Of a stretch of 64,000 nucleotides of DNA, positions 43,475 through 49,841 are shown piece by piece; the first letter of the stretch is position 1; each line of letters starts with the position of its first letter. The stretch covers positions 10,974,001-11,038,000 of the forward strand of contig NW_024704748.1 of the NCBI RefSeq assembly GCF_018977255.1. The letters run 5' to 3'. This DNA is from Callorhinchus milii (Eukaryota). The translations under genes were made by a program, and so were the position numbers. Below the pieces are notes generated by a model. That model saw only the letters and a list, made by a program, of their open reading frames with translations. It ran no database searches and had not been told where the DNA came from.

Positions 43475-43597
<123 letters not shown>

Positions 43598-45838
43598 TTA
43601 GCTGCTGTTTGAGAGAAACTTCATCTCAATAGTGTAATAATCAAAGGGGAATGGTACAAGGATCTTTACTGAAAAGAAGTCACTCTCAAATGGATTGCAC
43701 TAACTCCTGATAAAATTCAACGGCTGAATACATTTCACAGATGACTGTGAATGATTCAATTGACGCCTGAAATGAAATGGATTATTGGATTCTTAATATT
43801 TAGATGCATGGTTAGCAAAATACCATCTGCTTGACAGCATCTCCCAAAATAAGTTCTCACTTTTCTCCAATTCTATAGCCTTCTGATAACAAAGCAGAAG
43901 TAAAAACCTTCTTCTGGATATTGGTAACTCCAAACTAAATACTGCTTCTAATTCAGGTATAGTTTTGATGCTTATTCCTGCAGATTTTCCATTATCTCTC
44001 TCCAAAACACACTTTCTATCTCCTTGCGACCTAAATTACCTCCTTCGTGTATTGAGGACACTCCCTCCCCATATCATGATATATTTTCCAACTGAGAAGG
44101 TTGGTGATCTCTTGACCTCAGGCATATTGTTTCTGAGCCAACCACAAGGAAATGTTTGCACATATTTCCTGGGTGTCCGTTCTCAAAATTGCCCTTCACA
44201 ACTATGTACGTGTGTTCTCTTATCCTGCCTGCTCTCATCACAGAAAAACACCCTCTTTTTCTGGGTTTATTTTCTTCAACTTATTCAACATTTTATATAC
44301 TTCTATCAGATCCTTTCTGAGATGTTTCTTTTTAAGACTGCAATAAACATCATGCTAAAAATCAGTTACTGTAGCCTGTACAATTCCCCAGTGATTGAAA
44401 CGTTATTTGCAACATAATTCATTAAATACTGTTTGAGCTATGTGCATAATGACACATAGCTTAAAGTACAAGGCAATACAAATCTAGATTATAACTAGTA
44501 CACAGCACAGCTATATGTTAGGTTCGGTAACCTGGCCCAAAGGAAAGAGATGGCTGATACACTGACGAGATTCACAACGCCCGAGTATGTTATCAGACTG
44601 CAGACTGATATCCTGCAATAACCCCAATTGTTCAGAATAAACATCCAGCTCATTCTTCTGGGCACTCTCAGTACTCTTAGTTGGACAAGATATTCAGCTT
44701 TCTGCTCACAAAGGAAAGAGGATAGAAAGCAAATGCACACTTAGGACATGGCATGTTCAAAAGAAAGAGTAAAATTGCTTCCAGGATTTAACTTCTTGCT
44801 CTTGATGGCTTTTAAGGCCATTATTTTTATTAGCCGAGAATAGAAGCCTTCCATTGGTTACCTGGTCTATTGCAAGATCGCTTCCAAATATAATGGTGAT
44901 TGATTTTATATCTGGACAAAATATTATTGCCCCGACTGAAGAAACTGAAGAATATACATTCCACTGCATTCCTGCAATGATCAAATAGCAATTTACTATT
45001 GTGTTGTTTTCACAAATTGATGATTTATTTGAAATTAAGTTAATGCATAGCCACAAATTACCAATCCTGAGGCATATATTTATTCAGGCAAGTTTTAGAA
45101 TTTCATTTGGAAATACAGTAATTTGGAGTTATGATCATTTGTCCTAATTAATGAATTAATTGAGGAAAAGCAAAATTAAGTGTGCTGCTCTCGTTTATCT
45201 AGCTTATTCAACGTGTCCTACTCTGTTTAATGTAGGTAAAGTGTACCTGTTACAATTTCTTCAACAAAGGCACAGGGGTCGCTTAATAACTCAAAGTATC
45301 TTGGATAGAGGGATGTGTTGCTCAAAAGGTCAGTTCCTCCTCCTAACTGTCATCCCAGATGAGATCAGATGGTTTTGCATAGATCAGAGATTGAAGCTCC
45401 TTTGTGGTCCATCATTCAAATCAAGTGATTTTATAAAAACTGTCAGTATAATTTATTTTTCCCCAGAATCTGCCAGAGTTAGGAATCTGCCGGGGATTAC
45501 CACACCGCCAATGAGAGATCAGGTCTCTGCAGACATTTAAACCTATTATTATGATAAATAGATTCTTTGTATAGATTGTCTTTTACTGTCCCATATTTAT
45601 ACTTTAGTGGGTTTGTTGTTAAATAATGTAAAATGAAGTGGAAATTCCGGAAGCAAGTTTATCTATTAGTCTTTCAGGCTGTGAATTACAATCACAAGCA
45701 TCCACCGCAAACTACTTCACATCAGGAAAGACTCCAAAAGTAGAAGCATAGCCACCGCCTAAGAGGTAGGGGGCTAATCACTGCAGTAACTTCGCTGCAG
45801 TTGTATCATTGAATATCAAACTGACAGGAAGAACTTAC

Positions 45839-45858
45839 TTTCGTAATGCACCTAGCCA
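45839..45858 (-). other. Candidate poison microexon (20 nt) with in-frame TAG at KCNMA1 site 1
   Basis: ~139-nt AG-free, pyrimidine/UGC-rich tract, then tgtgtgcag|TGGCTAGGTGCATTACGAAA|gtaagt; no transcript evidence. Confidence 0.5.
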
Positions 45859-46830
45859 CTGCACACAAAGCAAGGAGGTGAGGGACAGACACAAGCAAGA
45901 GGTGAAAGGAAGCACAGGAACAAATCAGCAAAATGTGGGTGGGGGGAAGGAGTGTGAGGCGGAGAGAGCAATTCAATGAGGAAAAAAGAAAGAGATAACC
46001 TGGTCAGAAAAAATGAAAATAAATATCAACAGGTGTTGATATAAAGGAACACAAAAAAATCTTTTGCGTGATGTTTTTCACTCAGTGTCAAGCAGCAAAC
46101 GTAGCAAGTGGCGGTCTTTGAAATGGACAGAATAAATCATTGACAAGCATGCTAATGCAATGAAAAACTTCAAAGAAATGTCAAAAAAAGTTCTGCAATA
46201 TAAGCCAATGATTTTTTTTTAACTTGAGGTAAATCGATGTGAAGCGTGAAATGTGATCCCTTTCTCTCAATGTTTCTCAAAAACTATCAGTATATATCAG
46301 AGGGAAAATAAATACTAGCTCGTTAATTAGCATGATTTTCAAATATTAATGATTTTGTGAAATTATGCATAACTTGAGGTATACTTTAAAAGAAGATATT
46401 GGAAAAATACATCAGTTAGACACTCTTGAGTAGCAAGAAGGGAATGCATGTACTGTATTGGGCATTTACATTCAATGATTAATGGAGGCGAGGATTATTA
46501 ATGAAGGGGAGGAGTAAAGCACAAACATTTTATGAAGCAAGAATGATCACCATCTGTGCTAGGACAAGGAATAAAACCACAAGAAAATACTGTGTATTGG
46601 TGGATTTTTCCTGCAAAGGAAACTATTGCTTTGGTACTAAAGAAAGGAAATGCTTTTTTATGTTGATTTTTAAAAAACGGGAACAAACTAATATATTTTG
46701 GTATGATACTCCTGACTCGATGAAAATCAAAGAATTAGTTTTATAGGAATTAGGTTAGGAATCAGAAGGTGTAGGAGAACGAAGATGTGTTGAAGTTTGT
46801 TTGTAGGTGAGTGAATGAAGAGGGGCATAC

Positions 46831-46842
46831 CGCTTTCCACTT
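46831..46842 (-). CDS. KCNMA1: KCNMA1 site-1 alternative microexon, 12 nt, (R)SGK(R); orthologue of mammalian SRKR
   Basis: ttctttgcag|AAGTGGAAAGCG|gtatgc; phase 2-2; position and length match the SRKR exon. Confidence 0.9.
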
Positions 46843-47914
46843 CTGCAAAGAACAAGAGAACATTTCAAATCAAACACTTTGGTAGAAACAAACAGGTGGC
46901 AACAAAAAAAACAAAGCAGAGTGAGAAAATCTTTTTTTTCTTGGATCATATATAAAAAAAACAAGAAAACACTTTTCTCATTCTAAACACCAATCTTAGC
47001 AAAATGACAAAAACACAAGAACAAAGCACTGCAGATGAGAACACACAGGGATTGTTTGAATTTTGTATTATTTTTCATGGTAAGCACACAACACTGTGAT
47101 GGACAAGGATGAAGGGGAGAGTGGGGATTCTAGCCTGTAGCGTTGTTATAGCTGACTCCCACCCCACTGTAACTCAACCCATTATAATGCAAGGTCTTCT
47201 TCTATAGACTCGCCAACCACCACCTTATAACGGGGACTGACTGTAAAATGTGCTTCAGAAACTCAATATTTAGTGGTATTGCTAGCTTTGACCATAAGCA
47301 GCTGAGCAAGCCGCCCCCACCCATCTCCTGCCTCCTGCAAACCTTCATCACTTTCACTGGATGCTCACTTGACACAATCAAGACTGTGCCTTCAGTCATC
47401 TTGTGCTTATTGCTTAAATGCTTTTTCACCAGATCATTTTGCAGAAAGTGGGATTAAACTTCTGCCAATTAATGAAATGCTGCTTTAATAGTGATGATTC
47501 TCAGCCTGCCTGAGCAGACTTACAGATGCAAGGAATGGCTTTTGTTTGCACGTGGTTAAGCTTCCTTTGAGGTCAGTGAAGGTTTTTCAGGTGCGATTAA
47601 GTCTAACCAGCATGATCGTTTCAACCGATTGTGCTACTCCCATTCAACAGATCCGAAGGAGCTCATAGGCTGCTTTCCTCAACTACTGCAAGCCTACTGT
47701 CAGAAACGGGTCAATGGCTCTAGTTCTTGAACACGTTACTGACAATTAGGATCAGTACATGATCAATAGCTTACTTACTAAATGGGAATGAATGGATAAA
47801 GGAATACTTTGGTTGACATAAAGTCTGTTCCCATTAAGAGGCTATATTTAGAAAGGGCTTTTAATCAGCATCATTCACCCACTGCACATTTCAGAGCAGC
47901 AAAATCTATAATGA

Positions 47915-48052
47915 ATAAAACGCAAAATACTGCAGATGCTGGAAACCCAAAACAAAAACAGAAATCACTGGGAATGCTCAGCAGGTCTGGCAGCATCTAT
48001 GGAGAAAGGAAAGTGAGTCTACGTTTTGGGTCCATGACCCTTCATCAGAACT
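47915..48052 (-). mobile_element. Penelope-like element fragment with a degenerate minimal hammerhead core
   Basis: Plus strand aatactgcagatgctggaa...ctcagcaggtctggcagcatct; minus strand CTGATGAAGGGTCATGGACCCAAAACG. Confidence 0.55.
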
Positions 48053-48149
48053 CAATCTATAATGAACCCTGATGTACAAAGTAAAATATTTGCCTCTTTG
48101 TTTCCATTTCAACTTTCCCAAATGTTATTTGGAAGCATTGTGTGTCAGC

Positions 48150-48580
48150 CTGACTCATTCTCGTCTCTGAGTCAGAAGATTGTGGGTTCAAGCCCCACGT
48201 TGGGACTTGGAATCACACATTCTAAGGTGACAGTCCAATGTAGTGCTGGGGATGTATTGCATTGTTGGATGTGCCATCCTTCGGATGAGATGTTAAAACG
48301 AGATCATGCCTGCCTATTCAGGACATTAAAGATCCCACAGCACAATTCAAAAAGAGAAGGGAGTTTCTCCCAGTGTCCTGGCCAACAATCTCACAAATAA
48401 AACTGGTCACTCACTCCATGGCTGTTTGTTGAGAAAATTGCTGTATGCAAACTGGCTGCCACGTTCACCAACAAAGTAGTCAAATCCACTTTGCAATATA
48501 TCCTGTAAGGCCTTTTTCGACGTCTCGAATGATGTGATAAGGCATCATGTTAAATGCAACGATTATTAGTATTATTATTG
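48150..48580 (+). mobile_element. Deu-domain SINE, near full length
   Basis: Head ctctgagtcagaagattgtgggttcaagcccc; core tgccatccttcggatgagatgttaaa...gtgtcctggccaaca; (ATT)n tail. Confidence 0.8.
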
Positions 48581-49772
48581 TTTTCTGTGTGATGCACCAG
48601 GTAGCTGTTGGAAATGTGCTGTTCCAGCAAATGCAACAGAAAACAGGTTCCAAGTCCCACATCCATCGTGCAAATCTGAGCGTTAACAATCATGCACGGA
48701 AGGGACGATGCATGATATTTTTCACCAAGGGGATTACTTGCAATAAAATTAGTATTTTTTTTCACAAAGTAACTCAAAAATGCCCGTACTTTTTTTTAAT
48801 TGAAATGAAATTTCATGACAGTCCAAATCTTGCGATACTTTCTTTAAAATTTAATGAAAACGGCATTCCTGTTGGTAACCATTGAAAGCATGCAACAAAG
48901 TTTGTAAAATAATCTTGACTGCTTTGAACTGTTCCATTTTCTCCATCTGATTTTAAGTTTTTAGTGAGGATTTGATACTGGGGTCTTTGCCACCTTTATA
49001 AAAACACGTTTATTCCATTGGTCAACCGCAGTTGTAGGGCTCAGTGACGCACATGCTTTGAAGTTAAATAAACTACATTTAATCTTCATTATCTATCTTT
49101 CTTCAATGATTTCAACACGACTGCCTTGCTTTCCAATGGGTGGGACATACAAATCATTAGTTGTGATGCATTTCTTTCATATGAAATTGATAAATATCAA
49201 ACTGATTTGTATTATTCTGTACAAAAGCATAGAATTAATCAGATTACTCTGTGGGGGGGGGGGGGGGGGGCGGGGGAGGTGGTGGTGAGAGAGGGGTTGC
49301 ATTGCCTTTATTAGTATTAATGCACCAAATTAATCTGATGCGATATTTAGATGTTTCTTAGTGTCCAATTAATGTAATCTTTTGGGTTTTAAGGGTCTGT
49401 TGACTGATCTCAATACCATCTCTTAAACCTCTTGCTACTCTTCTCTGCGAACACTTGTACACTAGTATAAGAATGGTCTGGGAAGAAGCACCATTTCTCT
49501 GAAAATAAAAATCGCGTGAAACAAATCACACAAGTTAACTGTATCATGTGCATCACAATGTTTCCTTTTCCCTGCTTCATCCCTTCTGCAGTTAACGCTG
49601 TACATAGGAACTAAGATGCCACTGTGAAATAATGTTAAAATTGCTTGTTGTATAGCAACCATAGTACCAGGTATTCTGAGCCAACATTTTCCTAAATTCC
49701 CTGATTGGAAAGATTCAGTGAGCAATTAGCAGAGACGTATTAATGTTTCGCAACAAATGCTGGAACACTCAC

Positions 49773-49841
49773 CTGCTCTCCCTTTTGTCTGACTTGTACT
49801 CTATGGCTATCAGCAGCAGCTTCAGCTTCACGTAACACAAT
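49773..49841 (-). CDS. KCNMA1: KCNMA1 constitutive exon, 69 nt, (E)LCYVKLKLLLIAIEYKSDKRES(S/R)
   Basis: cacacacag|ATTGTGT...GAGAGCAG|gtgagt; phase 2-2. Confidence 0.98.

What the first reader, a model, noticed from the sequence alone, without database searches (positions are those of the whole stretch)
45839..45999. Candidate poison microexon at BK splice site 1 behind a ~139-nt AG-exclusion zone
Seen: on the sense strand no AG occurs from 45999 to 45861. This tract is pyrimidine- and UGC-rich and ends in tgtgtgcag|TGGCTAGGTGCATTACGAAA|gtaagt, a consensus donor. Entering in phase 2 gives (S/R)-G-STOP. An upstream acceptor (ttttttctgaccag, exon start 45999) reaches the same TAG in frame, and the internal TAG acceptor (13-nt exon) frameshifts. 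Known: long AG-exclusion zones and upstream UGC motifs mark regulated, SRRM3/4-type neural microexons. Inference: an NMD-coupled switch on BK expression, or a channel truncated in RCK1. I know of no description of such an exon here.
Basis: partly seen in the sequence, partly recalled or inferred. Interest (0 to 1): 0.7.

Follow-up and report, generated by a model that had tools for sequence, protein, structure and literature searches.

The report
Conserved poison-exon candidate in BK gene
An intron of the elephant shark's BK potassium-channel gene holds a 20-base stretch with strong exon borders and an early stop codon, followed by a predicted RNA hairpin that a distantly related vertebrate shares; it is likely a rarely used off-switch exon that would send the message to decay, but no spliced RNA containing it has been seen.

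Summary
The AG gap alone is weak (19% of shuffles lack AG), but the donor is the best-scoring GT of the 6.2-kb intron.

New here is one distant-vertebrate ortholog fragment (L052). It aligns significantly with this intron in only two blocks: the SRKR microexon and 54 nt starting just behind the candidate donor. It has a GTGAG donor at the same place (980 vs 993 nt from SRKR), the same predicted stem-loop (20 of 20 pairs kept, donor included) and an upstream CAG|TGGC-stop (TGA for TAG). The exon body, its length and the long AG-free tract are not conserved.

Three RNA contig sets from one study show only the skipped junction. They also miss the known SRKR-type exon, so the negative is weak. Three mammalian tables list no such exon.

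Verdict: probably (0.5) a conserved, rarely included poison exon; the main rival is a never-spliced decoy donor. SRRM3/4 control is unsupported. The scan noted a different BK poison-exon candidate (after S6) in another genome.

The parts
49773..49841 (-). Constitutive 69-nt exon (LCYVKLKLL...KRES), phase-2 donor of the site-1 intron
   Evidence: RNA joint 43562-49773
46831..46842 (-). 12-nt SGKR exon, counterpart of the known SRKR site-1 microexon
   Evidence: 81% over 80 nt to L052; mouse 12-nt exon between 69- and 87-nt exons; inclusion not seen in this species' contigs or in its 14 proteins
45861..45999 (-). 139-nt AG-free pyrimidine tract; branch-point-like A at 46004, 45977, 45955, 45925, 45903, 45879; UGC at -14; also the 5' part of a possible 161-nt exon from acceptor 45999
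   Evidence: sequence and length not conserved in L052
45839..45858 (-). Candidate 20-nt stop-codon exon (T GGC TAG, stop at 45854-45852)
   Evidence: sequence; splice-site scores; GCAGTGGCT+stop occurs once in 304 kb of the gene and once in L052; splicing not shown
45833..45838 (-). Consensus donor GTAAGT; a GTGAG donor lies at the same place in L052 (1804)
45785..45839 (-). Predicted stem-loop: arms CUUCCUGUCAGUU and AACUGCAGCGAAG, closed by donor AGUAA paired with UUACU; arms conserved, loop diverged
   Evidence: (E 2e-6)
45724..45770 (-). Second, weaker conserved block with a second copy of GCRGTGGCT (45758-45750); role unknown
43476..43562 (-). Constitutive 87-nt exon (ILINPG...KEVKR), acceptor of the site-1 intron

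Best explanation
The stretch is likely an old, rarely included poison cassette exon in the splice-site-1 intron of the BK channel gene, whose inclusion would put a stop two codons in and would send the mRNA to nonsense-mediated decay. Shown: the splice-site motifs, the in-frame stop, at least 12 downstream junctions, the skip junction in RNA, and in one distant vertebrate a donor at the same place, the same stem-loop arms and a CAG|TGGC-stop. Predicted: a stem-loop that starts at the donor and pairs its GU-A-A with UUACU. Inferred: the default is skipping; a regulator that opens or binds the hairpin, or acts on the pyrimidine/UG-rich tract, lets U1 define the exon (20 nt from 45858, or 161 nt from 45999), and the result is less BK mRNA rather than a new protein. 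Which regulator and tissue are involved is unknown, and nothing here points to SRRM3/4 specifically.
For: Top donor of the intron and top-1% acceptor. The only other site in 264 kb with the same anatomy is an exon used in an annotated isoform with a similar peptide in a seahorse protein. L052 aligns with the 6.2-kb intron at E below 0.01 in only 2 blocks, SRKR (1e-15) and the 54 nt right behind the donor (2e-6). SRKR-to-donor spacing is 993 vs 980 nt, and the only AAGTRAG in 2645 nt of L052 sits there. Consensus fold keeps 20 of 20 pairs in both sequences, with 1 double and 2 single changes; core hairpin z -2.7 and -2.1 (windows chosen after seeing the alignment). L052 has a T-tract, CAG|TGGC TGA at 1428 (stop codon swapped, 8 of 20,000 shuffles; found after the fact). 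All five L052 acceptors tried (1424, 1428, 1756, 1791, 1794) give an in-frame stop.
Against: The only spliced form seen in 3 RNA contig sets of one study is the skip; intronic contigs run through both candidate borders with no joint or loose end. This is weak, since contigs drop rare forms, tissue is unknown and the SGKR exon is unseen too. Only one ortholog, of undetermined species. Exon body, length and the long AG gap are not conserved. An in-frame stop after some YAG arises in 71% of shuffles, so stops alone mean little. The energy to open the donor is ordinary: 10-13 of 27 used donors cost as much, so masking is not shown. About 4-7% of intron windows fold as well, and two sequences cannot test covariation. 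Mouse and human tables list only the SRKR 9/12-nt forms in this intron, and a human NMD-event list has 3 KCNMA1 events, none here.
Confidence: 0.5

Rival explanations
1. A conserved decoy (pseudo) 5' splice site with a hairpin, never spliced: it would bind U1 and tune inclusion of the SRKR microexon 1 kb upstream, or delay removal of the intron.
For: What is clearly conserved is the donor and what lies 3' of it, not the exon. Only skip junctions are seen. Precedent: the ENOX1 pseudo-5' site silences an upstream alternative exon through U1 and has no junction reads (PMC13100119, passages).
Against: A good acceptor lies upstream in both species (45858; L052 1756 and 1424/1428), and the CAG|TGGC-stop start is shared; a pure decoy needs neither.
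Confidence: 0.25
2. The conserved hairpin is an intronic regulatory element in its own right (protein-binding or structural), and the flanking AG, stop and GT are an incidental, unused pseudo-exon.
For: The AG gap follows from composition (19% of shuffles). About half or more of long AG gaps are chance (PMC1431707, passages). The donor's pairing with the hairpin's 3' end gives a non-splicing reason to keep AGURA.
Against: Top-ranked donor of the intron, same position in L052, and a shared stop-bearing acceptor motif.
Confidence: 0.16
3. The exon is included and the mRNA escapes decay, giving a channel cut near the end of RCK1 (about 590 aa) that would dampen or poison tetramers.
For: The stop falls after the whole membrane core (residue 589 of 1187). 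Truncated dominant-negative BK variants are described for site 2 (recalled, not checked).
Against: At least 12 junctions follow the stop. None of the 22 short BK proteins that reach site 1 (of 80 hits under 652 aa) ends in S/R-G-stop.
Confidence: 0.05
4. The conserved CTTCCTGTCAG inside the hairpin is the real acceptor of an exon starting at 45820.
For: The pyrimidine run and CAG are identical in both species.
Against: It scores -2.4 and -1.7 bits, its possible donors 0.5-2.8 bits, and a 4-nt indel shifts the frame between species.
Confidence: 0.04

Closest known systems
Poison (AS-NMD) cassette exons, e.g. the SF3B3 poison exon controlled by a conserved stem-loop (cited in PMC13100119, passage)
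   Same: Stop-bearing exon far upstream of the last junction, with a conserved flanking RNA structure.
   Different: In SF3B3 the stem hides the branch adenosine; here it starts at the donor. Inclusion and decay are not shown here, and the exon body is not conserved.
Distant-branch-point exons with long AG exclusion zones (PMC1431707, passages)
   Same: AG gap over 100 nt; a CTGAC with A at 46004 sits at its 5' end, 3 nt before an AG that scanning could bypass, followed by a pyrimidine run.
   Different: Five nearer branch-point-like sites exist, no branch point is mapped, and L052 has no such long gap.
SRRM3/4-dependent neural microexons (10.1101/2024.09.17.613571, passages and section 10)
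   Same: 20 nt, strong donor, UGC at -14, long AG-free tract.
   Different: Carries a stop and breaks the frame; the ortholog's candidates are 48 or 376-380 nt; no inclusion data.
Known BK site-1 inserts: SRKR (PMC3840924, passages) and the turtle 27-aa exon (P0046, P0114)
   Same: Same intron, same phase.
   Different: Those are in-frame coding inserts; the turtle peptide has no tblastn match in this intron; no insert among 249 parsed proteins matches the candidate.
Ultraconserved pseudo-5' splice sites (ENOX1; PMC13100119, passages)
   Same: Conserved donor-like motif downstream of an alternative exon with no junction reads so far.
   Different: Here a good acceptor and a stop lie upstream and a hairpin downstream; KCNMA1 is not named in that paper's main text.

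Membership tests
Poison (AS-NMD) exon | Exon-like unit with usable acceptor and donor | tested here: met
   donor top 0.21%, acceptor top 0.9% (matrix from 27 own junctions)
Poison (AS-NMD) exon | Inclusion gives a stop more than 50-55 nt upstream of a later junction | tested here: met
   stop at 45854-45852; at least 12 junctions downstream
Poison (AS-NMD) exon | Spliced into mRNA in some condition | tested here: inconclusive
   only the skip junction in 3 RNA contig sets; contigs drop rare forms and miss SGKR too
Poison (AS-NMD) exon | Inclusion isoform stabilised by NMD block | not testable with these tools
   no such run was offered
Poison (AS-NMD) exon | Conservation of splice sites or flanks across species | tested here: inconclusive
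   one ortholog: donor, 3' flank and a stop-bearing acceptor present; exon body not conserved
SRRM3/4 neural microexon | Length 3-27 nt (range recalled) | tested here: met
   20 nt in the window; not in L052
SRRM3/4 neural microexon | UGC between branch point and AG | tested here: met
   UGC at -14 and four more upstream; a common motif, present in 74-79% of targets
SRRM3/4 neural microexon | Neural-specific, SRRM3/4-dependent inclusion | not testable with these tools
   no tissue labels, no perturbation data
Distant-branch-point exon | AG exclusion zone of 100 nt or more | tested here: met
   139 nt; not in L052
Distant-branch-point exon | Branch point mapped near the 5' end of the zone | not testable with these tools
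   candidate A46004, but nearer candidates exist
Pseudo-5' splice site (decoy) | Conserved donor motif that is never spliced | tested here: inconclusive
   conserved in 1 ortholog; absence of junctions rests on contigs of one study
Known Rfam RNA family | Match to a covariance model at its gathering score | tested here: not met
   two weak matches (E 0.11, 0.5), both far below threshold

The most novel reading that the evidence does not exclude
KCNMA1 carries a jawed-vertebrate-wide, RNA-structure-gated poison exon about 1 kb behind the SRKR microexon. A conserved hairpin that pairs with the donor sets how much BK mRNA is destroyed, the exon's length drifts while its stop is kept, and a human counterpart (hg38 chr10, between 77019099 and 77025445) would be an antisense target for raising or lowering BK in KCNMA1 channelopathy.
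Probability: 0.2. Interest if true: 0.75.

Novelty: new member of a known kind. Interest (0 to 1): 0.5.

Why it matters
BK site 1 is described as taking one alternative exon (PMC13674577 and PMC3840924, passages). A conserved stop-codon exon there would add a dosage switch to a channel whose gain and loss of function both cause disease, and would tie that switch to the neuronal SRKR choice next door. Even if the exon is never spliced, the donor-plus-hairpin block is the only stretch of the 2.6 kb compared, besides SRKR, that aligns significantly with a distant vertebrate, which makes it a precise target for a minigene test.

Tried and rejected
Run search: no RNA holder listed on record; 12 runs offered, 6 laid (X1, X2, X3, X4, X5, X10), all contigs. 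X4 and X10 had no cover on the two exons, and X2 and X3 had none over about 46000-47100; no inference drawn. RNA contig ends at 45883-45995 lie near a SNP at 45886 and come from one study; not used. Extra depth near the candidate vanished when the SINE was left out, so it was a repeat artefact. Competing helices between AGUUACUGC and the two GCRGUGGCU copies are stable as isolated duplexes (-13 to -14.6 kcal/mol) but have pair probability 0.18 or less in all folds; not adopted. Donor masking as an unusual energetic barrier: not supported. YCAY (Nova-type, recalled) clusters: not enriched in the tract (P 0.46). A-to-I editing: no sense A>G in the hairpin in contigs. Homology to the turtle 27-aa exon: none. 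Paralogous copy in own genome: none. More orthologs: 0 in viral contigs, 0 in genome contigs, 1 of 85 metagenome loci. Rfam: nothing. Two papers on teleost and skate BK splicing were not held and may bear on novelty. No fold or complex job was run, as no protein question was open.

Full report
Setting. The window holds part of KCNMA1 on the minus strand; one exon's protein is 100% identical to Callorhinchus milii BK. Twenty-seven junctions were resolved against protein P0121 over 304 kb. The finding lies in the 6,210-nt site-1 intron (49772-43563), 993 nt behind the 12-nt SGKR exon (46842-46831), the counterpart of the mouse 12-nt exon that sits between 69- and 87-nt exons.

Observation. The AG gap is mostly composition: 19% of 20,000 shuffles lack AG, and gaps this long before a pyrimidine-rich YAG occur 5 times in 264 kb of sense strand. 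The pairing with a donor is rarer. Of 67 sense-strand sites with a gap of 60 nt or more, 2 have GTRAG within 51 nt, both GTAAGT (about 0.8 GTAAGT expected at that cut, about 0.09 at the 120-nt cut where both still stand; hand calculation). One is the candidate; the other (25593-25561) is used in an annotated isoform. With the gene's own matrix the candidate donor ranks first in the intron, acceptor 45858 fifth and acceptor 45999 second; the internal TAG acceptor is poor. The matrix rests on 27 sites and is no substitute for MaxEntScan or SpliceAI.

Conservation. A scan of metagenome contigs with a degenerate SRKR-exon pattern gave 85 loci; 1 of 85, L052 (2,645 nt), is a vertebrate site-1 intron fragment. 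Its species was not determined, and it holds no neighbouring exon, so orthology rests on the SRKR block and on spacing. Against the whole intron only two blocks reach E below 0.01: SRKR and flanks (81% over 80 nt) and 54 nt that start 7 nt behind the candidate GT (78%, E 2e-6). A weaker block follows to about 45724. Directly upstream of the block L052 has TAA|GTGAGG, 980 nt from SRKR, its only AAGTRAG; it scores 6.7 bits, fourth in the fragment. Upstream acceptors in L052 are at 1756 (48-nt exon, 8.7 bits) and 1424/1428 (380/376 nt; 1424 scores 12.6). The one at 1428 reads CAG|TGGC TGA, the same Ser-Gly-stop as the window with a different stop codon. The pattern occurs once in 304 kb of the window's gene and in 8 of 20,000 shuffles of the L052 segment; a looser form occurs in 84 or 709 of 20,000. 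It was found after the fact, and the same 9-mer recurs downstream in both species, so it may be kept for another reason. The exon body and the 139-nt gap are not conserved.

Structure. Both sequences fold the conserved block into the same hairpin. The consensus has 20 pairs, all kept in both, with 1 double and 2 single changes, and includes the donor A|GURA paired with UUACU. Limits: two sequences cannot beat the shuffle control (265 of 500), the windows were chosen after the alignment, 4-7% of intron windows fold as well, and opening the donor costs 4.0-4.9 kcal/mol, matched by 10-13 of 27 used donors. The hairpin is thus a fair prediction, while masking of the donor is only a possibility. 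No Rfam family matches.

RNA. Six of 12 offered runs were laid, all as contigs. X1, X2 and X3 (one study, tissue unknown) are RNA, as each holds the spliced joint from 49773 to 43562. Each also has an intronic contig running through both candidate borders, with no joint or loose end there. By hand, the bin depths at the two exon ends in X1 and X3 are fully accounted for by the listed contigs. The SGKR exon is not seen either, and the tool states that contigs drop rare forms, so this shows that skipping dominates and nothing more. X5, apparently DNA, has the AG, exon, donor and hairpin unchanged.

Proteins. Of 328 stored proteins, 249 could be parsed at site 1: 207 have no insert, 34 SRKR, 5 an extra Ser, 1 SRKR plus Ser, and 2 a turtle 27-aa exon. 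These are the top-listed hits of three searches, biased towards insert-less forms. None of the 14 C. milii proteins uses the candidate. Of 80 hits under 652 aa, 22 reach site 1 and none ends as predicted.

Literature. Searches found no description of such an exon. Read as passages: PMC3840924, PMC10486799, 10.1101/274449, PMC3989361, PMC6879206, PMC13674577, PMC13100119, PMC1431707; 10.1101/2024.09.17.613571 as passages and section 10. Searched in supplements only: PMC13078869 (5 mouse and 5 human KCNMA1 events in files 3 and 5, one more human event in file 6, only SRKR in this intron; file 4 was cut when stored), PMC7347940 (3 NMD events, none here), PMC7821500 (only 9- and 12-nt forms in this mouse intron) and PMC6889285 (human transcripts rose from 24 to 91, not listed one by one). 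A longer mammalian counterpart could be among those transcripts or outside these filtered tables. Two papers on fish BK splicing were not held, and bioRxiv supplements were not available. An earlier scan note (e1-9544406) proposes a different BK poison exon after S6 in another genome; I did not test it.

Mechanism and verdict. Most likely (0.5) a conserved, normally skipped poison exon whose donor sits at the foot of a conserved stem-loop; inclusion would stop translation at about codon 591, at least 12 junctions before the end, and trigger decay. Rivals: a never-spliced decoy donor acting on SRKR or on intron removal (0.25), a hairpin element with an incidental pseudo-exon (0.16), a stable truncated channel (0.05), an acceptor inside the hairpin (0.04). 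It works like a poison exon on paper, but membership needs junction reads. It would be a new member of a known kind; interest 0.5.

Noticed in passing
window 25593-25561 (-): 33-nt site-2 exon (PKYNYNGFITS) behind a 124-nt AG-free tract with GTAAGT; used in 1 of 14 C. milii proteins (P0130), with a similar peptide in seahorse P0135. Served as the internal positive control.
   Followed up: partly
window 43565-43562 (-): Tandem GAG/TAG acceptor; an extra Ser appears in 2 of 14 C. milii proteins and 5 of 249 parsed proteins.
   Followed up: partly
window 46830-46770 (-) and L052 825-885: The intron directly behind the SGKR/SRKR exon stays similar for about 60 nt; a chick insert extending SRKR from this stretch is recalled, not checked.
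   Followed up: no
window 45758-45750 and 45862-45854; L052 1424 and 1905: GCRGTGGCT occurs twice in both species, flanking the hairpin; only 4 copies on the sense strand of 304 kb and 0 on the antisense. Unexplained.
   Followed up: partly
window 45886: C>T (+ strand) allele in X1, X2 and X5 inside the tract; it creates no AG.
   Followed up: yes
G000 C7, window-continued 85769-85678 and about 85592-85500: Two similar pore-region exons in tandem, matching the mutually exclusive pair described for skate BK.
   Followed up: no
window 48580-47917, 43450-43215, 42700-42510: Interspersed repeat copies in and beside the site-1 intron.
   Followed up: no
window 17415 and 17409 (-): Two acceptors 6 nt apart (AV insert) on the exon after site 2, both used in C. 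milii proteins.
   Followed up: no
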